From a virus, in IMG/VR virus record IMGVR_UViG_3300009026_000007, positions 1 to 64,000 of that record: DNA of 64,000 nt; one strand, given 5' to 3'. Shown here one piece after another: positions 1,311 through 41,809 of the stretch (the first letter of the stretch is position 1; the number at the start of each line of letters is the position of its first letter). A model generated the notes under the pieces. The model saw only the letters and a list, made by a program, of their open reading frames with translations. It did no database searches and was not told the origin of the DNA. Both the position numbers and the translations under genes were made by a program.

Positions 1311-1724
1311 ATGAAAGACATTAAATTTTATATTAACCCTGAAAATAGTGGATTTTACCAAACAGATATAAATACTTCTATCCCTGATAAAGCCATAGAA
1401 ATTTCAGTAGAGGAAAGACATGAAATACTAAACTGCATTCTTTCTGGCGGTGTTGTCACATTCAATAAAGATAAGTACCAATTAAGTTTTATTGAACAAA
1501 AAGAAATTGACAAGAAATCTGCAATTTATGCTGAAAGGTGCTGGAGAGATTCTGAACTTTCTAAAGCGGATGTACAGATTTTTAAACTAGAAGACTCGCC
1601 TAAAGACTGTAATAAGGAAATCTCTGTGTGGAGAGGCTATAGAACACTTTTAAGGGATTACCCCTCCACAACAAGATTTCCTTATGGGAAACGTCCTTCA
1701 CTTAATAAGGATCTGTTAAAATGA
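1311..1724 (+). CDS. Tail fibre assembly chaperone
   Basis: Starts at ATG 1311; GFY...IP..AIEIS and ERxWRDxEL...WRxYRxxLRDxP motifs of Tfa/XkdW-like chaperones. Confidence 0.8.
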   Translation: MKDIKFYINPENSGFYQTDINTSIPDKAIEISVEERHEILNCILSGGVVTFNKDKYQLSFIEQKEIDKKSAIYAERCWRDSELSKADVQIFKLEDSPKDCNKEISVWRGYRTLLRDYPSTTRFPYGKRPSLNKDLLK

Positions 1725-3898
1725 CTCAGCAAACTTCTCCTTTTGTTGAAGTAAACTATGGGTGGGCCTATGGGGAGTCTGGGTGGAATGGTGGTATGGA
1801 TGAAAACTTACTTCAATTTTCCTACCTATTCGATAGAAATGTTGATGGTGTCGTCAGCTCTTTACCTCCAGCAATTTCAGGATCTTCATATTATCTAACT
1901 GCCGATAATAGGTTTTATTTTGCAGTTGGTACAACATATTATTCTTCTCCAGTACCAAAGTGGTTTACTTTCTACATTAAAAGTAATGGTAATCCTTATC
2001 AATTTAATGGTACAACGGCTGTTCTTGTTAACTCTGAATCTCAACTAAACACTCGTCTAACTGCTGTAGAACTTACTTTATCTACATTAGGAACAGCGGC
2101 CTTTAGACCTGAGACATATTTTGCAACCCAATCTGCGCTAGATGTGGCAAGTTCTCAAAGTGCTTCTTACACAGACAGCTTAAGATCTGACCTATCCTCC
2201 AGTACAGGGTCAAGTAGGGTAGGTTTTAAACTCTCATCTTTACTCTCTAGTCTTAGGACTGTACAAGATAAGTTAGCTGAGAGCGTTTCAGTAAAAGATT
2301 TTGGTGCTGTTGGGGATGGTGTTGCGGATGACACAGCAGCCATTCAAGCAGCACTGGACGCAAGTAACAGTGTGTATGTTCCTCCTGGCGTCTATCTTTT
2401 GTCTGCTACTTTACACTCACGCCCCAGAACAGAATTTTATGGGAGTGTTGCAGAGATTACCCAACTTAAAAGAAATGGCGCTGACTACGGCCATACTTTG
2501 GAGTTGGGCACAGAGTCAAGTAACCCGGCAAACAACGCCAATCTCTGTCACGTACACGGACTTTGGTTTCAAAGGAACTTCTCCTACACCCCAGGTGTCA
2601 CAACCACAATACCAGACCCTTTGTCAGCAGGAACCTCACATATTAAGTTAAATGGTGGTCAAAAAGCCATTATTGAAGATAATATGTTGTGGAACGCGCC
2701 TATTCTTATTGACGTAGTTACTAGCTCTTTGGTAACTATTAGAAATAATGGTCTACTCTCAATGATCTGGGACAATAGGGTTTCGGGGTTAAGGGAGGGT
2801 TTTGCTGCGATACAAATACGTAATAGCAGTTTAATGGCGGGGGCAACTCAACTTGTTAACGTCTATGGAAACCATATTAATGGTGGGTACTTTTCTGCAT
2901 CCCGTGCAGTAACCACAGGAAGTGTCAGTACACCAATGGTCGAGTGTATCGGCGCCTTGTATGGGTTAAACGTAGAGGCTTGTGAAGGGTTAAGTGTTTA
3001 TGATAACTACTTAGGTGCATTTAACCAAAACAATATGTATATTAATGCCATTGGCTTAGTAACTAATGTTAGGTTTTGGGGTAATTTTGTTGATGGTTCA
3101 CGAGATTATGCTATTGTAACAAACTGTACAAACGGTAATCCAACAGTAGGGTTGCAAATTTTTGGTAATGATTTTAACTTGCAGCTTATCAACATGGGAG
3201 CTATATACGCACTTGGTGCTGGTTGGACCACAGTTGTAAAACTTATCATAGCTGATAACAACATAGAAAACTCAATACAGACACCTATTCTTCTGTTCAG
3301 TGTTTCTGGTGCAAGCATCAATTCTAATATGATCAGTGCCTACAACGTAAGAAGGGGTGGTGATGCAAATAGTTTATATGCTGCCGGTATTCTTGTTGGA
3401 GGTACATCAGACAGGGTTTTTGCAAGTGGTAATAGCTATGGTGGGAATGTTAATACCTTAGATGCAACAGGTAATGGCTGCACTTGGGGTATTTACTTCG
3501 ATAACAATACTGCTGGTTATGCTTTAAACGAGTACGACTTAGGCAGGTCATTGGCTGGGAGTTTCCCCCTTGTTGTGGGGGGCACGGCTATTCCTTTGTC
3601 TCCCGTTCAGGCTACTCATGTTGCATCAACTGGTAACTTTCAACTTCTACCAAGCCATCTTGTCTATATTCGGACAGGGATGGCTACTGGCGCAACTGTG
3701 GCGGCACTTCCTGCAAATCCGATTATTGGACAAGAACATGTGATCAAAGATCAGAGTAACGCAAGTTCATTTCCTATTGTTATAAACCCAACAGGGTCTG
3801 GTATTACAATTGACGGCGCAAGTAATTTGAATATTACCACTACTTATGGATTTGTAAGACTTAGGTTCAATGGCTCTATGTGGAACAGAATAGGATAA
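1721..3898 (+). CDS. Tailspike / polysaccharide depolymerase (pectate-lyase-like beta-helix)
   Basis: VSVKDFGAVGDGVADDTAAIQAAL motif followed by Asn/Ile-rich beta-helix repeats. Confidence 0.85.
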   Translation: MTQQTSPFVEVNYGWAYGESGWNGGMDENLLQFSYLFDRNVDGVVSSLPPAISGSSYYLTADNRFYFAVGTTYYSSPVPKWFTFYIKSNGNPYQFNGTTAVLVNSESQLNTRLTAVELTLSTLGTAAFRPETYFATQSALDVASSQSASYTDSLRSDLSSSTGSSRVGFKLSSLLSSLRTVQDKLAESVSVKDFGAVGDGVADDTAAIQAALDASNSVYVPPGVYLLSATLHSRPRTEFYGSVAEITQLKRNGADYGHTLELGTESSNPANNANLCHVHGLWFQRNFSYTPGVTTTIPDPLSAGTSHIKLNGGQKAIIEDNMLWNAPILIDVVTSSLVTIRNNGLLSMIWDNRVSGLREGFAAIQIRNSSLMAGATQLVNVYGNHINGGYFSASRAVTTGSVSTPMVECIGALYGLNVEACEGLSVYDNYLGAFNQNNMYINAIGLVTNVRFWGNFVDGSRDYAIVTNCTNGNPTVGLQIFGNDFNLQLINMGAIYALGAGWTTVVKLIIADNNIENSIQTPILLFSVSGASINSNMISAYNVRRGGDANSLYAAGILVGGTSDRVFASGNSYGGNVNTLDATGNGCTWGIYFDNNTAGYALNEYDLGRSLAGSFPLVVGGTAIPLSPVQATHVASTGNFQLLPSHLVYIRTGMATGATVAALPANPIIGQEHVIKDQSNASSFPIVINPTGSGITIDGASNLNITTTYGFVRLRFNGSMWNRIG

Positions 3899-3900
3899 TC

Positions 3901-4014
3901 ATGACAAACTATTCAGAAGCTGCAAAGCTCTTGGGTGTAGAGGAGGCAGCCGTAAAGGCTGTCGCTTCTGTCGAGAGTCAAGGATTCATATTTTTCTTGG
4001 ATATTTTGATGTAA
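3901..4014 (+). pseudogene. Truncated N-acetylmuramidase (DUF3380-type) endolysin remnant, 37 aa
   Basis: Unlisted ORF MTNYSEAAKLLGVEEAAVKAVASVESQGFIFFLDILM*; AAxxLGVxxAAVKAVAxVESxG is the catalytic-Glu helix of DUF3380 muramidases; lies at the endolysin position. Confidence 0.75.
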
Positions 4015-4028
4015 CATGCTATTATTAT

Positions 4029-4049
4029 ACCTCAAATTAATTGTGAGGT
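4029..4049 (+). promoter_or_regulatory. Hairpin sequestering the RBS of the HNH gene
   Basis: ACCTCA (4029-4034) pairs with TGAGGT (4044-4049), which is the SD, ending 4 nt before ATG 4054. Confidence 0.55.
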
Positions 4050-4053
4050 TTTT

Positions 4054-4617
4054 ATGTGTAAGGTCAGTGAGTGTTTAAAAATAGACGGAAACAAAGAGAA
4101 ACTTGTTAAACGGATTTCTCAGCGCACTAAAATTAATCCCGAAACTAGGTGTATTGAGTGGACAGCAAGGTCAAGAACATCTTTTGGCTACGGGCAAATT
4201 GGGTTGAAAGATTTTACGGGTCTACGTGTTCACAGGGTTGTTTGGACTATAGCTAACGGGGAAATACCCGAAAACCTGTTGATTATGCACTCTTGTGATA
4301 ACCCACTTTGTTGTAATTTAGAACACCTTTCTCTAGGCACTCATAAAGATAATACTGCCGATATGTGGACTAAAGGGCGTCAATCAGAGCCACCAATTCA
4401 CAAAGGTTTAGAGGAATATAGAGAACGAAACCCCGGAAAATTTCGTGGTGAAGAAAATGCTACATCTAAACTAAAAGAATTTCAGGTTTTAGAAATTCTT
4501 ACTTCCCCAAAAAGCCCGAAGTATTTTTGTGAAAAATTCAATATTTCTAAGCATACTATTTCTTTAATCAGAAAACGAAAAATATGGAAACATGTTGAGG
4601 TTCCTAGTGAATATTAG
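4054..4617 (+). CDS. HNH homing endonuclease
   Basis: CIEW...GYG...RVHRVVW...GEIP...MHSCDNPLCCNLEHL..GT..DN motif plus C-terminal HTH. Confidence 0.9.
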   Translation: MCKVSECLKIDGNKEKLVKRISQRTKINPETRCIEWTARSRTSFGYGQIGLKDFTGLRVHRVVWTIANGEIPENLLIMHSCDNPLCCNLEHLSLGTHKDNTADMWTKGRQSEPPIHKGLEEYRERNPGKFRGEENATSKLKEFQVLEILTSPKSPKYFCEKFNISKHTISLIRKRKIWKHVEVPSEY

Positions 4618-5035
4618 TCAAAAAGGCATTAGCCTAATTAAAAGTTTTGAAGGCTTGTCTCTTAAAGCTTATAAAGACTCTGTTGGTGTTGTGACAATTG
4701 GCTATGGTTCCACTGGTCCTCATGTTTCAATGGGACAAACCATCACTGAGACTCAAGCAGAGTCTTTGCTTAAGAGCGACATTTCAAGGTTTGAGAAAGG
4801 GGTAAGTGACCTAGTTACTGCCCCTTTAAATCAAAATCAGTTCGATGCTCTTGTTAGTTTTAGTTTCAATCTTGGACTTGGTAATCTTAAGTCCTCAACA
4901 CTACTTAGAAAGCTTAATTCCCTAGACTATGCAGGGACATCTAAAGAGTTTGAACGTTGGAACAAAGCTGGTGGTAAAGTTTTGGCTGGACTAACCTGTA
5001 GACGAATTGCAGAGAGGGATTTGTTTCTCTCCTAG
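4607..5035 (+). CDS. Endolysin, GH24 lysozyme
   Basis: IKSFEG....Y.D.VGV.TIGYG catalytic triad (E-x8-D-x5-T), NQFDALVSF..NLG; probable GTG start at 4607 after GAGG. Confidence 0.93.
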   Translation: MNISQKGISLIKSFEGLSLKAYKDSVGVVTIGYGSTGPHVSMGQTITETQAESLLKSDISRFEKGVSDLVTAPLNQNQFDALVSFSFNLGLGNLKSSTLLRKLNSLDYAGTSKEFERWNKAGGKVLAGLTCRRIAERDLFLS

Positions 5036-5047
5036 GCAGATATAACA

Positions 5048-5389
5048 ATGACAGATGTAAAAGTTGAAGACCTTGTAACACCCATCACAAAAGATACAGC
5101 TGTTGAAGCAACAATCACTTCTACTCTGTCATCTACTCCTACTAAACTAACCCTCGTACCCAATTGGAAAAAAGTTCTCAAAACTTATTCCTTTTGGACC
5201 ACTGTATTGTCTGCTCTGTTGTCATTGGTTGAAATCATTCTTCCATTCTTCTCCCTTCTTGAGCCTACAATGTCTGTGGCTGCGTACGGCGTATCCATGT
5301 TCGTGCTCAACGTATCTGCTGCTGTCTTCAGGATGATCAAGCAACATAAGCTTTGGCAACCAGAAGAGGATAAGGACAATGTTCAGTAA
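5048..5389 (+). CDS. Putative holin
   Basis: LVPNWKKVLKTYSFW motif and two hydrophobic helices; lies between endolysin and spanins. Confidence 0.6.
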   Translation: MTDVKVEDLVTPITKDTAVEATITSTLSSTPTKLTLVPNWKKVLKTYSFWTTVLSALLSLVEIILPFFSLLEPTMSVAAYGVSMFVLNVSAAVFRMIKQHKLWQPEEDKDNVQ

Positions 5390-5822
5390 TATCTTCTCTG
5401 GTGCCACTCTGTACATCATCCTAGCTCTTCTGGCTTCAACAGCAGGGTTTGGCTACCTTTCGTATAAGCTGAGCAATGATAAGGCCGTAGCAGTAGCTCA
5501 GCTTAAGACTGCCAATGAAACGGCTGAAGGATATAAAAACTCCCTTAACTTAAAGGATTCTTCTTGTAAGATTGATGACACCTCAGTAGTTGAAGTTGAA
5601 ACAGACAAGAAAGACCTTCAAACTAAAGTTGATGCTGTATCTGATAAATTTGATAAGCTAAAAGTTATTACGGCTACTAAGCCTTCAGTCAAACAAGAGA
5701 TAATTAACCATGAAACTAATGTCTTGCCTGATGATGGGATTCTTAGTCCTAACATTACAAGCTTGCTCAAACTTGGGTGGTGTGACTCCTTCCCCACAGA
5801 TGACGTATGTCGGACCAAGTGA
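5379..5822 (+). CDS. Rz: Inner-membrane spanin (Rz-like)
   Basis: N-terminal TM helix plus coiled coil; overlapped in another frame by a lipoprotein gene. Confidence 0.75.
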   Translation: MFSNIFSGATLYIILALLASTAGFGYLSYKLSNDKAVAVAQLKTANETAEGYKNSLNLKDSSCKIDDTSVVEVETDKKDLQTKVDAVSDKFDKLKVITATKPSVKQEIINHETNVLPDDGILSPNITSLLKLGWCDSFPTDDVCRTK

Positions 5823-5994
5823 CGCATTGTTGATGCGACCATGTAAGGCAACCCCTGCTGGTGAGAGTCTTATTGATCTAGCTAAAGCTCAGAACAAAAA
5901 TGTGTCTTGCATCAGTATGTATCAGAAACAGTTAGACGCAATCAAAAAGAATAGAGACAAGCAAAAGGAATTGTATAATGTCAAACCCAAGTGA
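5710..5994 (+). CDS. Rz1: Outer-membrane lipoprotein spanin (Rz1-like)
   Basis: Signal peptide II with lipobox LQAC, Pro-rich mature part, overlaps the 3' end of Rz. Confidence 0.75.
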   Translation: MKLMSCLMMGFLVLTLQACSNLGGVTPSPQMTYVGPSDALLMRPCKATPAGESLIDLAKAQNKNVSCISMYQKQLDAIKKNRDKQKELYNVKPK

Positions 5995-6289
5995 TGCTGG
6001 GCATCGTATTAATAACTTAATGGAACGTTGTGCTATTGCATTGCTTGCGCTTCTGTTTTCTATCCTCTTCACTGTTTATCAGTATCAACGAGCCGACTTC
6101 AAAACTTTAGAAGAAAAAGTTTTAGTGATGCAGATGAATAAGGTAAACAAGGAAGATTTAAAAGATGTTGAGAGTAGGTTAAATTTGAAAATGGATGCAA
6201 TGGCTATCAACATGAGTCAAGAGGTAAGAAACACTCGTGCTGATATCATTGACAGGATTGAACTGCTGTTTGGGAAAATAAAGAAGTAG
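5978..6289 (+). CDS. Membrane-anchored coiled-coil protein (lysis region)
   Basis: Single TM helix followed by coiled coil. Confidence 0.6.
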   Translation: MSNPSDAGHRINNLMERCAIALLALLFSILFTVYQYQRADFKTLEEKVLVMQMNKVNKEDLKDVESRLNLKMDAMAINMSQEVRNTRADIIDRIELLFGKIKK

Positions 6290-6641: not shown

Positions 6642-6708
6642 AAACAGAATAAATATAAGAAGCTCCCTAGAGCAAAGAGAGCTGCGCCATCAGCTTATCT
6701 CAGAATTT

Positions 6709-6745
6709 AGCCCAGCTATCCGTTTAGGACGCTGGGCTTTCTTTT
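6709..6745 (+). terminator. Rho-independent terminator ending the late operon
   Basis: AGCCCAGC...GCTGGGCT stem followed by TTCTTTT, at the convergence of + and - operons. Confidence 0.75.
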
Positions 6746-8542: not shown

Positions 8543-9247
8543 TTATGTTGTCAAGCGAGCTTCGTAGAAATCTACAAAATCTTTCCAAATGCCTCCAGAC
8601 CTCAGCCTGGAAATACAGCTAGGTTCCATTTGGAGGGTGTCCGCAATCTTTTTATTTATAAGTCCTGCCTTGATCATTTCCCAAGCTTCTACTATTTTAA
8701 CAATAGAATACGCACCAACAGTAAACGACTTAGGAAAAACTTTACCTTCTCTCTTGTAAACGTGTTCCCATTTCTTGCCGTGACGAACTAGTGATATGTA
8801 ACGGGGGTGAAGATTAAACTTTTCACCTATGTAGTCGTTATTGTACCCCAGTTCAAACAGCTGGTACATCTCTAAAAGCTCTGCCTCAGTGATTTTACTG
8901 CCATGATTATCTTCTCCTCGCCTTCCTTTTGACAACCCCATATCATAGGCATGTTGGGTGTTATAACTCACGGTTACGACTTCAAGATTTGAAAGTATAT
9001 TATTTAATTTATTCCCGTCTTTATGGTTAACAACCAAATTCTCTGGTATAACTCCGAAGAACGCCTCCATCATTGCCCGATGCACACCTCTAGCCCTTGT
9101 TGTAACTCTTTTAGCAACGACCAGATAACCATGGGCATTAACAAAACACTTAATGAGTTTACCAGTTTTAGGGTTCTTTACACGCCCAATATTACTAATA
9201 AGGTAGTGAGTTAGTGGGTGCTTCTTCCAAATTTCAACATCTTCCAT
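8543..9247 (-). CDS. NUMOD4-HNH homing endonuclease
   Basis: EIWK...Y.ISN.GRVK (NUMOD4), VHR....FF...VNHKDGNKLNN...NLE...N..HA (HNH), two HTH repeats. Confidence 0.9.
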   Translation of the reverse strand: MEDVEIWKKHPLTHYLISNIGRVKNPKTGKLIKCFVNAHGYLVVAKRVTTRARGVHRAMMEAFFGVIPENLVVNHKDGNKLNNILSNLEVVTVSYNTQHAYDMGLSKGRRGEDNHGSKITEAELLEMYQLFELGYNNDYIGEKFNLHPRYISLVRHGKKWEHVYKREGKVFPKSFTVGAYSIVKIVEAWEMIKAGLINKKIADTLQMEPSCISRLRSGGIWKDFVDFYEARLTT

Positions 9248-9267
9248 AGTTTTCTCCAAATAGAAAC

Positions 9268-34810: not shown

Positions 34811-34875
34811 AATTACTTATGCCGGTTGCCTACAGAGGCCGTCGGTCGTGATTTCTGATTATTTGGAGTTGGGTC

Positions 34876-35439
34876 ATGAATGAAGTGAAGCGGTATGACG
34901 AATATGAGTGCGGCGTGCGTGAATGTGCAGAATATGGCGAGTACGTTAAATCAGAAGACTTCGACCGGGTAACCGCCGAGCGTGACGCGGCGCTGGGGCG
35001 CGAGGATGCGTTGACCTTTGCATGTAACTCGTGCGCCCTAGAGGTAACCCAAATCAAAGAAAGCATGGCCTATCGCGGAAGCCTGCTATGCCGAGTTCAA
35101 GCTGAGCGTGACGCCCTGCAACAGCACCTGACCGCTGCGGATGAGCGGGCGGATGTGCTGGAGGGGTTGTTGCGTGAGGTTCAGAAGTCCGCGCGCAAGC
35201 AAGACTGGGCAAGTGGCTATCCGACACTGTTCGCAAGTGTTGATGCCGCACTCAAGCCAGCAGAGGCCAAGCTGTGCAAGACCTGCAACGGTACGGGCAT
35301 TGTGAGTGAAGGCGCCATGTACTGCTCTTCTGGCGGAATCCCTTTTGAGTGCGGCCCCATTGAGTGCGTGAAGGACTGCCCGGAGTGCACAAAACCATGG
35401 CCCAACTCCCCGCCTACTGCCAGTGCCTACTGGCAGTAG
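34876..35439 (+). CDS. Prophage-type hypothetical protein (Ead/Ea22-like region)
   Basis: EVKRYD...G.YV...DFDRVTAERDA...LQQ.LTAADER.DVLEGLLRE and C-terminal CxxC zinc motifs; GC-rich codon usage. Confidence 0.7.
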   Translation: MNEVKRYDEYECGVRECAEYGEYVKSEDFDRVTAERDAALGREDALTFACNSCALEVTQIKESMAYRGSLLCRVQAERDALQQHLTAADERADVLEGLLREVQKSARKQDWASGYPTLFASVDAALKPAEAKLCKTCNGTGIVSEGAMYCSSGGIPFECGPIECVKDCPECTKPWPNSPPTASAYWQ

Positions 35440-35465
35440 GCACAACTGATTTGCTGAGGTGATTT

Positions 35466-35612
35466 ATGAATAAGCCGGTCTGGTATTACGAGAGGGGGGC
35501 GCTTCGCGTCCTAATCGGAAATCTTGAGGTTATATGCCCCGATATAGGTCTGCCTCTAGTCAGGATGGTCGCCCTGACTATCCAGCACTGCAAGGAGTCG
35601 AAACTGTTATGA
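35466..35612 (+). CDS. Small hypothetical protein (48 aa) in GC-rich insert
   Basis: Unlisted ORF MNKPVWYYERGALRVLIG... with GAGGTG SD and ATGA overlap with next gene. Confidence 0.55.
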   Translation: MNKPVWYYERGALRVLIGNLEVICPDIGLPLVRMVALTIQHCKESKLL

Positions 35613-36036
35613 CCACCAACCAAACGATTGACGGCGTGCCGCGTGAGGCATTCAAGTGGGCGTTAGAGCAGCTTGAGGAAGACGGGAACAAAGGCTGCGG
35701 CTACTTCGACAGTCTGCGCGCCCTGCTGGATTCGCCTGCCGTGCATCCTGATTTGGGCTCTAGTCCAGCCAACCACATGGCATGGCTACTGGACAAGGTA
35801 GTTAACCCTGGCGAATACCCGGTCCATGTTCTGCATGAGCAGATACGCTCAACATTGGAAGTTCTCGGTAAGCCAGCCGCCCAGCCCCAGGGCGAGCCGG
35901 TAGAACTGGCGGTGCTGCCAGAAAGAGCTGATCACAAAAGCGACAATGCCCCAACCCGGCATTCTGCGAAGATGAAGATTTCGCACATGGCTGGAACGCC
36001 TGCCTCGACGAAGTAAAGAGGCTGAATACCAAGTAA
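35609..36036 (+). pseudogene. Prophage-type protein MTTNQTIDGVPRE..., frameshifted near 35935-35955
   Basis: The typical C-terminal GWNACLDEVKRLN motif lies in the -1 frame, ending at TAA 36036. Confidence 0.6.
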
Positions 36037-39612: not shown

Positions 39613-39641
39613 TTGACGGGATACTAACAACCCTGTAAACT
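39613..39641 (+). promoter_or_regulatory. sigma70-type early promoter
   Basis: TTGACG-17-TAAACT. Confidence 0.65.
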
Positions 39642-39678
39642 CAATCCTAACAGAACGACATTCTCTAGGAACACAGCC

Positions 39679-39822
39679 ATGAAGCAATTAAGAACACCAA
39701 TGTTTACAATGCTTGATGGATCAGAGGTTGTTTTGTTACAGCCCTATTGGAATGCTTATACACATAAGCTGTTCTTGGTGCTTGGTGACCATGGGATGTA
39801 TTGTCCTGTGGTTTTTGATTAA
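39679..39822 (+). CDS. 47-aa protein, copy 1 of a duplicated gene
   Basis: Unlisted ORF MKQLRTPMFTMLDGSEVVLLQPYWNAYTHKLFLVLGDHGMYCPVVFD*. Confidence 0.7.
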   Translation: MKQLRTPMFTMLDGSEVVLLQPYWNAYTHKLFLVLGDHGMYCPVVFD

Positions 39823-39832
39823 GGTGAATGTT

Positions 39833-40279
39833 ATGTCTACTTGGCAAACAAGCATAGTGAAAGCCAGAGCCTATGCCAAAGAGTTGGGTGTATCTCACAT
39901 TAAAGACAGAAGTCACATATCATTAATAAATGCGATTAATGATTGCTTGAATGATGAAGTAGATGTAGAATCAATTAAACGCAATATGCTTGATGTTGAT
40001 TACACACAAAACCTTATGTCAAACATCCTCAATGAAGTTAGCCTTCAGACAGGAATTTCTGTAGATAACCTAAAAGGATAATTAAATATGAAAGGTGAAG
40101 ATCTTAAAAAGCTTCTGTGTTATGTTTATAACAATGGTTACCAGGCAGGACATTACGATACTGTTGAAGGGGGCTACACAGATGTTATGTTTGTTGACTT
40201 TACAGATTATTACGAAAAGGAAACTCAAGAGTTATTGGCTGAATTCCTTAGTGCTTACGTTTATTGCAAAGTTACATAA
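39833..40279 (+). other. Two small hypothetical CDSs (about 39833-40081 and 40088-40279)
   Basis: Co-oriented ORFs with SD sequences. Confidence 0.55.
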
Positions 40280-40293
40280 TTAAGGAATATTAT

Positions 40294-40833
40294 ATGCATT
40301 CTGGATTAGATAATATAAGTCTGCAAAAACAAACAGCAGAACTGTTATATAAGCAAATAACCATCATTGACCCAGAATGCATTCTGGTAGGAGGTGCCCC
40401 AAGAGATTGGTACTTTAACCAAGAAGCCACCGATCTAGATTTTTTCTTTGTTCCTAGTGCAGAAATTTCTATCCAGTATTTAATGTCACTATTAGGAATA
40501 TCCTTAGTTAGTCGTAGAGGAACAACAGCACACCATCTCTGTGAGAAAATGCCAGGACCACTAAAGATATGGGAAGCTGTGTTTAACAGTATTAAGATAC
40601 AGTTGGTTGAAATATCTTCCAAAGAGATTATGAGTGTTGCTGTTGATGAACTTCATTTATCAATATCTAAGATTGTCTGGTTGCCCTCAGATAACTTCAA
40701 AATCCATAAAGATTTTAGTAAGACACTTGAAACAAGTATTATCTATGGTAAGAGTGGCTATGATTTAAATAGCCCATACGCACAGAAAATACTAGCTAAA
40801 TATAGCCCTTTAGGGTATTCTCTAGACTTATAA
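40294..40833 (+). CDS. Nucleotidyltransferase (tRNA nucleotidyltransferase / poly(A) polymerase head-like)
   Basis: LVGGAPRDW......DLDFF class II NTase motif A. Confidence 0.75.
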   Translation: MHSGLDNISLQKQTAELLYKQITIIDPECILVGGAPRDWYFNQEATDLDFFFVPSAEISIQYLMSLLGISLVSRRGTTAHHLCEKMPGPLKIWEAVFNSIKIQLVEISSKEIMSVAVDELHLSISKIVWLPSDNFKIHKDFSKTLETSIIYGKSGYDLNSPYAQKILAKYSPLGYSLDL

Positions 40834-40856
40834 ACTCTAAATTGAAAAGGTGTAAA

Positions 40857-41030
40857 ATGAATAGAGATAATTTTGAAGTTATGCGCTATCTGGTTGTTGA
40901 GTACGTGGGTGACTCCATGGTTCAGATTAGCCCGTCTTTGAGTTTGGAAAATGCACGTAATTTTATCAAAAATAGTCGTGAATGCGAACCAAAGGTAGAG
41001 TTTTACATTATCGCAGTTCTTGAGGAATAA
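40857..41030 (+). CDS. Small protein, paralog of 38679-38852
   Basis: Shared FEV......Q.S....L...R.FIKN.RE..P..E..IIAVL.E pattern. Confidence 0.65.
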   Translation: MNRDNFEVMRYLVVEYVGDSMVQISPSLSLENARNFIKNSRECEPKVEFYIIAVLEE

Positions 41031-41033
41031 CCT

Positions 41034-41135
41034 ATGTACTCCCTAAAAGACATTGTACGAATCAATGATATCCTTTCTGAATATCATGGTGTTAAATGTG
41101 TTGTTGTGAAGAAAGGAAGAGAAAAACTCTTCTAA
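41034..41135 (+). pseudogene. Truncated copy of the 42605-42799 gene
   Basis: About 80 nt nearly identical to 42605 onward (MYSLKDIVRINDILSEYH.VKCVVVKKG), then diverges and stops. Confidence 0.65.
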
Positions 41136-41153
41136 AGACAAAGAGTAGCATAC

Positions 41154-41585
41154 ATGAACGCAAACATCGGCAAACTGAACAGCGGTAAATGCTATGTCTA
41201 CCTGAACGGTTACAAAGATGAACCCTTCTATGGTACTGAACAAGAATGTGAACAAGCAATTATTGAGTATGGTGTTGCTGATCCAATCCCTGTCTTTTGT
41301 GATGGTGTAGACCTAACTACCAGCAAAACAGGTACAAAGCAAGCTCAAGCTGAAAAGATCAATACACCTACAAAAGCTGTCTATAAGATTGTAGAGACTT
41401 TCCGATACACCTTGACAAGTAAAGAGTGGTATGGTGGCGATCAGTATGGTGTAATCGAAGCTTACAACAAAACAGAAGCTCGTAAGTTGATTGCGGAAGC
41501 TTATCGTCAGGATACACCGCGTAATGCTAAAGCTTGTGGGTTTGTTCCTTGGAGTCAAGTTAAAATTATATGGGAAGAGGAGTAA
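41154..41585 (+). CDS. Hypothetical protein
   Basis: ORF. Confidence 0.65.
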   Translation: MNANIGKLNSGKCYVYLNGYKDEPFYGTEQECEQAIIEYGVADPIPVFCDGVDLTTSKTGTKQAQAEKINTPTKAVYKIVETFRYTLTSKEWYGGDQYGVIEAYNKTEARKLIAEAYRQDTPRNAKACGFVPWSQVKIIWEEE

Positions 41586-41602
41586 TTTTACAGAATCTCT
41601 TC

Positions 41603-41631
41603 TTGACACATTGAGGAGACTCCAATAATAT
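41603..41631 (+). promoter_or_regulatory. sigma70-type early promoter
   Basis: TTGACA-17-TAATAT. Confidence 0.7.
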
Positions 41632-41665
41632 TGTTATATAGACAAAGCAAAAGAGAACAATAACC

Positions 41666-41809
41666 ATGAAGCAATTAAGAACCCCAATGTTTACAATGCT
41701 TGATGGCTCAGTAGTTGTTCTGTTCCAACCCTATTGGAATGCTTATACACATAAGCTGTTCTTAGTGTTAGGCGATTATAGGATGTATTGTCCAGTGGTT
41801 TTTGATTAA
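41666..41809 (+). CDS. 47-aa protein, copy 2 of a duplicated gene
   Basis: Unlisted ORF MKQLRTPMFTMLDGSVVVLFQPYWNAYTHKLFLVLGDYRMYCPVVFD*. Confidence 0.7.
   Translation: MKQLRTPMFTMLDGSVVVLFQPYWNAYTHKLFLVLGDYRMYCPVVFD

What the first reader, a model, noticed from the sequence alone, without database searches (positions are those of the whole stretch)
3901..5035. Endolysin replacement: DUF3380 muramidase cut after its catalytic motif, followed by an HNH + GH24 lysozyme cassette
Seen: right after the tailspike, an unlisted 37-codon ORF reads MTNYSEAAKLLGVEEAAVKAVASVESQG and then decays into AT-rich sequence (FIFFLDILM*). Established: AAxxLGVxxAAxKAVAxVES is the catalytic-glutamate helix of DUF3380 N-acetylmuramidase endolysins. 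The break falls a few codons after VES, the kind of conserved site homing endonucleases target. An HNH gene follows and overlaps a complete, unrelated GH24 lysozyme. No 3' half of the muramidase and no intron core are visible. Inference: a selfish cut-and-complement element that destroys an essential gene at its active site and supplies a non-homologous replacement, so it can home without splicing.
Basis: partly seen in the sequence, partly recalled or inferred. Interest (0 to 1): 0.8.

Follow-up and report, generated by a model that had tools for sequence, protein, structure and literature searches.

The report
Endonuclease-linked swap of phage endolysins
A selfish DNA-cutting-enzyme gene sits where this phage's cell-wall-degrading enzyme gene was cut off just after its active-site codon, followed by a complete, unrelated replacement enzyme gene, and related phages show the same layout with several other enzyme types.

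Summary
Window 3901-3985 is the first 28 codons of a PF11860/DUF3380 muramidase, including the catalytic Glu. It is followed by a promoter-bearing HNH_3 endonuclease gene (4054-4617) and a complete GH24 lysozyme (4592/4607-5035). No 3' half of the muramidase and no intron core exist in the 88.5-kb genome.

Seven HNH-less relatives carry an intact DUF3380 endolysin at this locus. The HNH belongs to one clade of 8 elements (7 distinct rows among 129 homologues, SH-aLRT 95). Every member lies between an endolysin 5' stub and another endolysin: GH24, SAR-GH24, DUF3380, GH19 or lambda-type. In four diverged members a GH24 stub ends at the same codon (T-I-G|), directly at the cassette's promoter.

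The window's stub breaks at a 13-nt G-Y-G-coding core that the DUF3380 and GH24 genes share. A near-identical block (stub, HNH, first 163 nt of GH24) has moved into a different backbone (L009).

Best reading (0.6): intronless homing that co-converts a resistant replacement endolysin, much like yeast WHO elements. Cleavage is untested. Four HNH-less relatives also carry stubs, with other breakpoints. This scan has noted similar layouts on other DNA. I found no phage description in print.

The parts
1721..3898 (+). Tailspike (725 aa). This is the left neighbour. Its body is not homologous between relatives, so left-hand homology with relatives starts only a few nt before, or at, the stub.
   Evidence: Pfam Pect-lyase_RHGA_epim 8e-16. 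blastn homology with L009 starts at 3901, with L002 at 3892 and with L003 at 3889.
3901..3985 (+). 5' stub of a PF11860/DUF3380 muramidase endolysin: 28 codons including the catalytic Glu (E25), plus 1 nt. It is the proposed left homology arm.
   Evidence: Catalytic Glu plus PMC5674055 passages.
3901..4014 (+). 37-codon ORF formed by the stub plus a 9-codon out-of-context tail. The tail is not conserved as protein: L009 has a 1-nt insertion at 3990 that changes it.
3986..4053 (+). 5' leader of the HNH cassette. It holds a sigma-70-like promoter (TTGGAT 3997-4002, 17-nt spacer, TATTAT 4020-4025) and a GAGG ribosome-binding site at 4045-4048. It is homologous to the leaders in L005, L059, L156, L160, L159 and L060.
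   Evidence: One search finds 1 promoter-like site in this stretch, read as TGGATA-16-TATTAT with 9 of 12 matches. That is not above the shuffle expectation of 3.6. Aligned junctions.
4054..4617 (+). Free-standing HNH_3 endonuclease gene (187 aa): an N-terminal His-Me finger and a C-terminal helix-turn-helix-like tail. All nine invariant family residues are present.
   Evidence: Pfam 1.1e-14. Alignment invariants C33 H79 C81 D82 N83 C86 N88 H91 N100. AlphaFold pLDDT 90.8. Best PDB fold match is I-HmuI 1u3e, E 9.5e-3, prob 0.98.
4592..5035 (+). Complete GH24 (T4-lysozyme-type) endolysin with the Glu-8aa-Asp-5aa-Thr triad. The probable true start is GTG 4607, which corresponds to the ATG of the L001 and L147 genes, with the GAGG inside the HNH 3' end as ribosome-binding site.
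   Evidence: Pfam PF00959 1.6e-50, profile 1-125 of 125. Start-codon comparison. The triad spacing was read and compared with the rule quoted in PMC5674055.
4700..4712 (+). GGCTATGGTTCCA, coding G-Y-G-S. It lies at the position in GH24 where the GH24 stubs of relatives break. It is 11 of 13 identical to the DUF3380 sequence at which the window's own stub breaks.
   Evidence: Only match to GGNTATGGTTYCA in 64 kb, against 0.02 expected. Codon tables.
4769..4771 (+). Recombination crossover seen in L009. To the left L009 matches the window (8 differences in 3901-4769). To the right it matches the L147/L001 GH24 type.
5048..5389 (+). Holin-like membrane protein (DUF7940). This is the proposed right homology arm shared with DUF3380-bearing relatives.
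   Evidence: Pfam 2.5e-9. 92-95% amino-acid identity to L001-L003.
5379..5994 (+). i-spanin (5379-5822) and embedded o-spanin (5710-5994) candidates.
   Evidence: Weak Pfam LysC hit at 0.0086 for 5710-5991. Conserved order in relatives. The spanin naming is inference.

Best explanation
This is a free-standing (intronless) homing element whose unit has four parts: a 5' stub of the resident endolysin, a promoter-bearing HNH endonuclease gene, a complete endolysin that the enzyme does not cut, and the holin gene.

Proposed steps, all inferred:
1. In a mixed infection the HNH cuts or nicks the intact DUF3380 allele of a related phage at or next to the G-Y-G codons, 3 codons after the catalytic Glu.
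2. The broken 3' part has no partner in the donor and is resected as far as the holin gene.
3. Repair uses the 84-nt stub and the holin as homology arms. It copies the HNH and the GH24 gene into the recipient.
4. The recipient's muramidase is thereby reduced to a fresh stub, and lysis is kept by a non-homologous enzyme, with no splicing needed.

The same clade of HNH genes does this to GH24 genes at the T-I-G|Y-G codons. The window's lineage probably switched from GH24 to DUF3380 through the shared G-Y-G-coding core.

Shown here: the anatomy, the clade-wide association, the recurrent breakpoint and the recombinant block in L009. Inferred: the cleavage itself, its site, the donor's immunity and any inheritance bias.
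For: 1. Stub and neighbours are as described, with no 3' half and no intron.
2. Seven of 16 HNH-less loci have an intact PF11860 gene at the same place, with the same upstream ribosome-binding site and overlapping the same holin.
3. All 8 HNH-bearing loci of 24 distinct loci have a lysin stub upstream and another lysin downstream:
   - window and L009: DUF3380 stub, then GH24
   - L005: GH24 stub, then DUF3380
   - L059: GH24 stub, then GH19
   - L156: GH24 stub, then lambda-type lysozyme (cut by the contig end)
   - L160: GH24 stub, then another GH24
   - L159 and L060: SAR-type stub, then SAR-GH24
4. These HNHs form one clade among 129 distinct homologues (SH-aLRT 95; 0 of 500 shuffles as clustered). 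Among 100 non-clade HNHs, only 1 has a cell-wall hydrolase as its downstream ORF.
5. In L005, L059, L156 and L160 the HNHs are only about 45-67% identical. Yet each GH24 stub ends after T-I-G, directly at the -35 hexamer of the cassette.
6. All four of those stubs keep an open frame and the E, D and T residues. They are about as close to functional GH24 genes (up to 0.76 nt identity) as to each other (up to 0.73). This fits stubs that are renewed by repeated invasions.
7. The window's stub breaks at GGA|TATGGTTTC of the L002/L003 allele. The GH24 stubs break at GG|TATGG.
8. L009 carries a block about 99% identical to window 3901-4769 in an otherwise different backbone: different tailspike, L147/L001-like GH24 3' part, holin 53% identical.
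9. The first 84 nt and the remainder of DUF3380 genes give discordant similarities, for example L002-L005 0.83 against 0.70 and L002-L145 0.63 against 0.77.
10. The model follows known homing biology (PMC2988022 passages) and the WHO-element model, in which the gene fragment is the homology arm (PMC7282813 section 10).
Against: - No cleavage, nicking or inheritance data exist.
- Four HNH-less loci have DUF3380 stubs with other breakpoints: codon 23 in L001, L147 and L237, and about codon 12 in L154. L237 has a different downstream lysin behind a similar linker. Stubs can therefore form or persist without an HNH and away from the proposed cut site.
- My attempt to derive the codon-23 form from the window form by deletions was not significant: 66 of 500 shuffles matched as well.
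- The window's own GH24 contains the 13-nt core, so immunity must depend on flanking bases that I cannot identify.
- L060's stub breaks elsewhere, inside the SAR helix.
- The same GH24-stub junction precedes three or four different lysins, which requires extra recombination events.
- Only two nearly identical DUF3380-stub copies exist (window and L009), so DUF3380-directed homing rests on one event.
- The promoter-like site in the window is not above chance on its own.
- The fold match to I-HmuI is weak: E 9.5e-3, TM 0.33.
Confidence: 0.6

Rival explanations
1. Ordinary module shuffling, with the HNH as a later passenger. The endolysin slot between the tail-fibre genes and the holin is a recombination hotspot. 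Illegitimate or short-homology recombination replaced DUF3380 by GH24 and left a stub. A free-standing HNH gene then settled in the dead spacer, where insertion costs nothing.
For: - Stubs without an HNH, and with three different breakpoints, occur in L001, L147, L237 and L154.
- Lysin types are also exchanged cleanly at the start codon behind a shared upstream hairpin region, for example L144 (GH24) and L007 (DUF3380).
- Tailspikes and holins are mosaic too.
Against: - This does not explain why 8 of 8 members of one HNH clade, against 1 of 100 other homologues, sit before a lysin.
- It does not explain why four diverged elements share the exact GH24 break at T-I-G| fused to the cassette promoter while the stubs still look like recent functional genes.
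- It does not explain why the window's break falls on the same G-Y-G core.
Confidence: 0.25
2. The HNH homes by cutting its neighbour GH24, not DUF3380. The enzyme's present target would be the 5' part of GH24 alleles of the L001/L147 type, and the window's GH24 allele would be the resistant variant. The DUF3380 stub would be an older scar that now only serves as the left homology arm.
For: - L009's converted block ends at 4769-4771, about 60 nt past the G-Y-G site of GH24. Its remainder matches the HNH-less L147/L001 type.
- The window type is nested among GH24-targeting elements in the tree.
- The HNH-less L001 allele reads GGATATGGTTCCA, while the window and L009 read GGC and carry other nearby changes.
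Against: - The window's stub ends exactly at the core in DUF3380. That is most simply the footprint of a cut there.
- A single recombinant (L009) could arise by plain homologous recombination.
Confidence: 0.1
3. The 37-codon ORF is a working small gene or an expression leader kept by selection, and the resemblance to an endolysin start is incidental to its present role.
For: - The first 63-84 nt are 0.94-0.99 identical among the window, L001, L147, L002 and L003. The adjacent GH24 of the window and L001/L147 is only about 0.72-0.90 identical per 60-nt window.
- The stub's stop lies just before the next gene's ribosome-binding site in L001, L147 and L237.
Against: - The tail after codon 28 is frameshifted in L009.
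- Stub lengths differ: 28, 23 and about 12 codons.
- L159's stub is frameshifted.
- High identity at all codon positions points to recent shared DNA and not to selection on the peptide.
Confidence: 0.05

Closest known systems
Free-standing homing endonucleases of T4-type phages (seg and mob genes): 'intronless homing' and localized marker exclusion (review PMC2988022, passages read; Belle et al. 2002 seen only in its reference list)
   Same: - The endonuclease gene lies outside any intron or intein.
- It is sporadic among close relatives.
- The expected mechanism is a cut in the endonuclease-less genome, followed by recombinational repair with co-conversion of flanking DNA, in effect lateral transfer of neighbouring genes.
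- It overlaps tightly with the neighbouring gene.
   Different: - Here the displaced and incoming genes are not homologous (muramidase against GH24).
- The insertion point lies inside the target gene at its active-site region and leaves a stub. It is not in an intergenic spacer hundreds of bp from the cut.
- The cassette carries its own sigma-70-like promoter, whereas seven T4 endonuclease genes are promoter-less.
- No enzyme activity has been shown.
WHO elements at the aldolase gene FBA1 of Torulaspora and Lachancea yeasts (Coughlan et al. 2020, PMC7282813; abstract and section 10 read)
   Same: - Homing into an essential gene without splicing.
- Each integration replaces part of the gene with a resistant version.
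- It leaves a gene fragment that serves as the recombination arm and need not stay open.
- The two sides of the cut site evolve discordantly.
   Different: - WHO replaces the 3' end with a homologous, resistant 3' end. Here the whole enzyme is replaced, often by a different fold family, and the fragment left behind is the 5' end.
- The nuclease is an HNH, not an intein-like WHO protein.
- The host is a phage, and the exchange would occur during co-infection, not meiosis.
Group I intron-borne HNH endonucleases such as I-HmuI of Bacillus phage SPO1 (PDB 1u3e)
   Same: - Best structural match of the modelled protein.
- Similar size and layout: an N-terminal His-Me finger and a C-terminal DNA-binding helices.
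- Insertion at a conserved catalytic-site sequence of an essential gene.
   Different: - No intron core (Rfam) and no 3' exon.
- Gene function is rescued by a second gene, not by RNA splicing.
- Sequence similarity is too low for phmmer to detect.

Membership tests
PF11860 / DUF3380 N-acetylmuramidase (the 37-aa fragment) | Significant match of the fragment itself to the family profile | tested here: not met
   hmmscan at E<=1 lists only Sigma70_r4_2 (0.16) and a NUMOD-like domain (0.29). The family search of the own genome found 0 candidates, and that search also rang in no control genome. The profile starts at residue 13-15 of full-length relatives.
PF11860 / DUF3380 N-acetylmuramidase (the 37-aa fragment) | Homology to bona fide family members at the orthologous locus | tested here: met
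   85% identity over 34 aa to L002. L002, L004 and L005 proteins hit PF11860 at 1e-56 to 1e-59. Own-genome search with L002 gives E 4.4e-12 at 3901-4005. 0.98 nt identity over 84 nt.
PF11860 / DUF3380 N-acetylmuramidase (the 37-aa fragment) | Catalytic glutamate (Glu101 of AP3gp15) present, and a complete catalytic domain | tested here: inconclusive
   The Glu is present as E25. The alignment to 7q4s is shown, and the match ranges to 5nm7 place E25 at residue 101. The mutagenesis result comes from PMC5674055 passages. The domain is not complete: only 28 of about 190 codons remain. It is therefore a family remnant, not a working member.
Free-standing (intronless) homing endonuclease | Nuclease domain with intact catalytic residues, not inside an intron or intein | tested here: met
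   HNH_3 at 1.1e-14. Nine invariant residues kept. No Rfam family in 3700-5200. Top fold hit is I-HmuI.
Free-standing (intronless) homing endonuclease | Present or absent among close relatives at one locus, with a recombination tract around it | tested here: met
   8 of 24 distinct loci carry it. L009 shares about 99% identity over 3901-4769 only.
Free-standing (intronless) homing endonuclease | Site-specific cleavage of the endonuclease-less allele and over-inheritance in mixed infection | not testable with these tools
   This needs enzyme assays and phage crosses.
WHO-like 'replace part of the target gene' homing elements | Endonuclease gene flanked by a fragment of the target gene (the homology arm) and by a functional resistant copy | tested here: met
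   Stub, then HNH, then complete lysin in 8 of 8 clade members, with L156's lysin cut by the contig end. Resistance itself is inferred.
WHO-like 'replace part of the target gene' homing elements | The replacement is a homologous, recoded part of the same gene, and the nuclease belongs to the WHO/HO family | tested here: not met
   The replacement is a whole gene of another Pfam family (PF00959 against PF11860). The nuclease is HNH_3. This element works like a WHO element but is not a member of that family.
Group I intron with an HNH ORF | Ribozyme core and a 3' exon that completes the interrupted gene | tested here: not met
   No Rfam match. No 3' part of the muramidase anywhere in the genome.
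GH24 / PF00959 phage lysozyme (4592-5035) | Full-length domain match and the Glu-8aa-Asp-5aa-Thr triad | tested here: met
   Profile 1-125 of 125, E 1.6e-50. E20, D29 and T35 in ATG-4592 numbering, read, have the spacing quoted for T4 and P21 lysozymes in PMC5674055.

The most novel reading that the evidence does not exclude
One clade of HNH endonucleases is a dedicated 'endolysin swapper'. It invades phage lysin genes at a short G-Y-G-coding core next to the catalytic residues and always brings along a lysin it cannot cut.

Because non-homologous lysin families (GH24 and some DUF3380 alleles) happen to share that core, the clade could jump from one enzyme family to another. The stub is regenerated at every invasion and is a working part of the element, serving as its left homology arm.

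The element would then be a main driver of the well-known patchwork of lysis enzymes among related phages. It would also be the first phage counterpart of yeast WHO elements in which the rescue copy is a functional analogue and not a homologue.
Probability: 0.3. Interest if true: 0.8.

Novelty: new variant of a known kind. Interest (0 to 1): 0.62.

Why it matters
Three reasons, if the reading is right:
- It shows that a homing endonuclease can invade the active-site region of an essential gene without an intron or intein. It does so by carrying a non-homologous enzyme of the same function.
- It gives a concrete, testable mechanism for why closely related phages carry unrelated endolysins in the same slot.
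- It gives a defined candidate target, the G-Y-G core, for a small I-HmuI-like enzyme.

It also warns annotators that short ORFs ahead of lysis genes can be gene stubs with a history.

Tried and rejected
- **Near-identical DNA search** of 3000-6000 against the phage collection: no match.
- **tblastn of the 37-aa peptide** against phages: no match.
- **phmmer of the HNH against PDB sequences**: only noise at E about 0.9.
- **Foldseek**: no match at E<=0.001. The best was I-HmuI at 9.5e-3. I did not run the VIA-align libraries.
- **Group I intron reading**: rejected.
- **Tandem-lysin reading** (the HNH only invades where a second lysin already exists): rejected. Each of the 16 HNH-less loci shows a single lysin before the holin or spanins.
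- **Deriving the codon-23 stub form (L001, L147) from the window form by deletions**:
  - The linker's second half matches the HNH ribosome-binding site plus ATG at 4045 with one mismatch, but 66 of 500 shuffles do as well at two errors or fewer.
  - The first half matches nothing meaningful (429 of 500 shuffles). The result is inconclusive.
- **A possible 6-nt (TATGGT) deletion inside the window's stub**, which would extend homology by TTCAT: seen by eye, with no statistic computed. I treat it as a lead only.
- **Literature**: searches for a phage description of an endonuclease-linked lysin stub found none in the listings. Searches served for DUF3380 and for homing background.
  - These searches cover only the held library. 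Supplementary files were not consulted.
  - PMC7685451 was opened (passages) and was not relevant.
- **Limits of the controls**:
  - The control lists only the first 25 of 30 families.
  - 22 of the 122 non-clade rows had no downstream ORF of 60 aa or more starting within -60 to +250 nt, several of them because the contig ended.
  - Stub detection in HNH-less loci used tblastn at E<0.5 plus reading of upstream DNA. L154's stub was seen only by eye, so short stubs may have been missed elsewhere.
Full report
**What is in the window.**
- Right after the tailspike (1721-3898; pectate-lyase-type domain) lies an ORF at 3901-4014. It reads MTNYSEAAKLLGVEEAAVKAVASVESQG followed by FIFFLDILM*.
- An HNH_3 endonuclease gene follows at 4054-4617 (E 1.1e-14).
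- A complete GH24 lysozyme follows at 4592-5035 (E 1.6e-50, full profile) and overlaps the HNH 3' end.
- Next come a DUF7940 holin-like gene (5048-5389) and two nested spanin-like genes.
- The window is part of an 88.5-kb IMG/VR virus record rated complete. It has no close relative among deposited phages.
- Its tail-fibre protein finds mostly Pseudomonas phages of 93-101 kb, at about 45% identity over half its length.

**Is the short ORF a muramidase remnant?**
- Pfam alone says no. The 37-aa peptide gives only HTH-type noise.
- The comparative evidence is clear. A scan of viral contigs with the holin gave eight related loci. In L002, L003, L004, L007 and L008 a 189-194-aa gene begins with the same residues at the same place and overlaps the holin start. 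These proteins hit PF11860 at 1e-56 to 1e-59, with the profile starting only at residue 13-15. That explains the failure of the fragment alone.
- The window's first 84 nt are 0.98 identical to L002 and L003. Homology stops at 3985.
- Searching the whole genome with the L002 protein finds only 3901-4005. Rfam finds nothing in 3700-5200. There is thus no 3' half and no intron.
- The L002 protein matches solved DUF3380 endolysins: 7q4s at 3.8e-55 and AP3gp15 (5nm7) at 3.5e-46. The match ranges place E25 of the stub at AP3gp15 Glu101. The Glu101Ala mutant lost 99.4% of activity (PMC5674055, passages).

**The same layout elsewhere, with the roles exchanged.** Further scans used the two HNH proteins, a holin alignment, an HNH alignment against metagenomes and a 23-nt stub pattern. 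Together they gave 24 distinct versions of this locus. Eight carry an HNH of this kind, and all eight have a lysin stub before it and another lysin after it:
- the window and L009: DUF3380 stub, then GH24;
- L005 (several identical contigs): 32-codon GH24 stub, then intact DUF3380;
- L059: 32-codon GH24 stub, then GH19;
- L156: 32-codon GH24 stub, then a lambda-type lysozyme (PDB 1am7, 1.2e-26; cut by the contig end);
- L160: 32-codon GH24 stub, then a different GH24;
- L159: a frameshifted SAR-GH24 stub broken at the homologous T-S-C| position, then SAR-GH24;
- L060: a 30-codon SAR-like stub broken elsewhere, then SAR-GH24.

Of the 16 HNH-less loci:
- seven have intact DUF3380;
- four have GH24 with no stub detected;
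- one has GH19;
- four have a DUF3380 stub without an HNH. L001 and L147 (then GH24) and L237 (then SAR-GH24) share a break after codon 23 and a similar linker. L154 (then GH24) breaks after about codon 12.

**Is the association specific?**
Support is SH-aLRT 95, and 0 of 500 label shuffles were as clustered.
- The window type is sister to L156 and nested among elements with GH24 stubs. This was a quick tree with a midpoint root.
- As a control, I scanned the ORF just downstream of 100 non-clade HNH genes against Pfam. One is a cell-wall hydrolase (GH108 with PG_binding_3). The others are unrelated phage functions (25 of 30 families were listed).

**The junctions.**
- In L005, L059, L156, L160 and L159 the stub ends directly at a TTGAC(A/T)/TTGATT hexamer. 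About 17-18 nt later comes a TAAAAT-like hexamer, about 30 nt before the HNH start. The window, L009 and L060 have the same leader with 9-11 extra nt.
- In the window the promoter-like site (3997-4025) is the only one found in 3700-5200, and it is not above chance on its own. Its weight comes from conservation across the clade.
- The HNH 3' end abuts or overlaps the next gene's start, and its GAGG serves as that gene's likely ribosome-binding site. Comparison with L001 and L147 suggests that the window's GH24 starts at GTG 4607.
- The four 32-codon GH24 stubs belong to HNHs only about 45-67% identical. Yet all keep an open frame and the Glu, Asp and Thr of the catalytic triad. They are about as similar to functional GH24 genes (up to 0.76) as to each other (up to 0.73).
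- The stubs are therefore much younger than the endonuclease lineages. That is what repeated invasions at one site would produce.

**A shared core.**
- The GH24 stubs break at ...ATT GG|N TAT GG.... The window's DUF3380 stub breaks at ...CAA GGA T|AT GGT TTC of the L002/L003 allele.
- The two unrelated genes share GGNTATGGTTYCA in the same register relative to the breaks. The match is 11 of 13 for the window's GH24 and 12 of 13 for L001's.
- The pattern occurs once in the 64-kb window, at 4700-4712 in GH24, against 0.02 expected.
- The other DUF3380 alleles (L004, L005, L007, L008, L145, L152) lack the Tyr codon. L005's own DUF3380, which sits behind an HNH, reads GGT GAT GGC CTG. L160's GH24, which also sits behind an HNH, reads GGT CAT GGC.
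- I infer that the clade's target is centred here, and that the window's lineage switched from GH24 to DUF3380 through this chance similarity. The window's own GH24 keeps the core, so flanking bases must decide immunity. I cannot resolve this point.

**Signs of movement.**
- L009 is about 99% identical to the window from 3901 to 4769: seven differences in 3901-4606 and one in 4607-4769.
- Its tailspike body is unrelated. From 4771 onward its GH24 matches the HNH-less L147/L001 type, and its holin is 53% identical.
- The block of stub, HNH and first 163 nt of GH24 has thus been placed in another backbone. Its right edge lies about 60 nt past the G-Y-G site.
- Among intact DUF3380 genes, the first 84 nt and the remainder give discordant similarities. 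This resembles the chimeric FBA1 alleles described for WHO elements (PMC7282813 section 10). With only 84 nt the signal is moderate.

**The enzyme.**
- All nine residues that are invariant across 67 homologues are present.
- The AlphaFold model is confident (pLDDT 90.8).
- Its best PDB match is the homing endonuclease I-HmuI, followed by I-PpoI, but at E 9.5e-3 and low TM. Sequence search of the PDB finds nothing.

**Interpretation.**
- The best-supported reading is intronless homing with obligatory co-conversion of a resistant replacement lysin. The stub and the holin would serve as homology arms. This is standard homing biology (PMC2988022 passages) combined with the WHO logic.
- The difference is that the rescue copy is a functional analogue from another enzyme family.
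- The main rival is plain module shuffling with a passenger HNH. It is kept alive by the four HNH-less stubs with other breakpoints. I could not show that these derive from HNH-bearing forms.
- A second rival is that the present target is the neighbouring GH24 and not DUF3380.

**Novelty.**
- My searches of the held library found no phage description of this layout.
- Notes from this same scan describe similar layouts on other DNA. One appears to be the reciprocal L005-type arrangement, and some of those notes pointed me to the WHO paper, which I then read.
- I rate this a new variant of a known kind: free-standing homing endonucleases and WHO-like gene-part replacement.

Noticed in passing
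window 8543-9259 (-): A second, larger HNH-type gene (238 aa). Its C-terminal helix-turn-helix part is 41% identical over 54 aa to that of the HNH at 4054-4617. Its neighbours were not examined for gene stubs.
   Followed up: no
L005 about 6690-6715, L059 about 565-585, L144, L153, and L007 upstream of the endolysin start: A conserved inverted repeat, GCACAAGGAYGTGC, lies about 25-40 nt before the endolysin start, whichever lysin type follows. L144 (GH24) and L007 (DUF3380) share the whole upstream stretch up to the ATG. It may be a terminator or late-promoter region that also serves as a recombination arm. The window lacks it.
   Followed up: partly
L001 2855-5134 and 5206-7464: Two tandem tailspike genes share the N-terminal ~160-180 aa of the window's tailspike but have different bodies. 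Across relatives, only the N-terminal part of the tailspike is conserved.
   Followed up: no
L237 7067-7160: The 23-codon DUF3380 stub and a linker similar to that of L001 and L147 precede a SAR-type GH24. The locus has no holin homologue of the window type. The stub plus linker may act as a reusable upstream arm.
   Followed up: partly
L155 2739-3432: About 700 nt lie between the GH24 stop and the holin start, with no long same-strand ORF. The stretch was not examined.
   Followed up: no
One of the 100 non-clade HNH loci (not identified individually): One distant HNH homologue is followed by a GH108 plus PG_binding_3 protein. It may be an independent endonuclease-lysin pairing.
   Followed up: no
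window 34811-36036 and 39613-41809: Earlier notes on this genome mention a GC-rich three-gene insert and a duplicated promoter-plus-leader gene (one search's companion look-up). I did not look at either.
   Followed up: no
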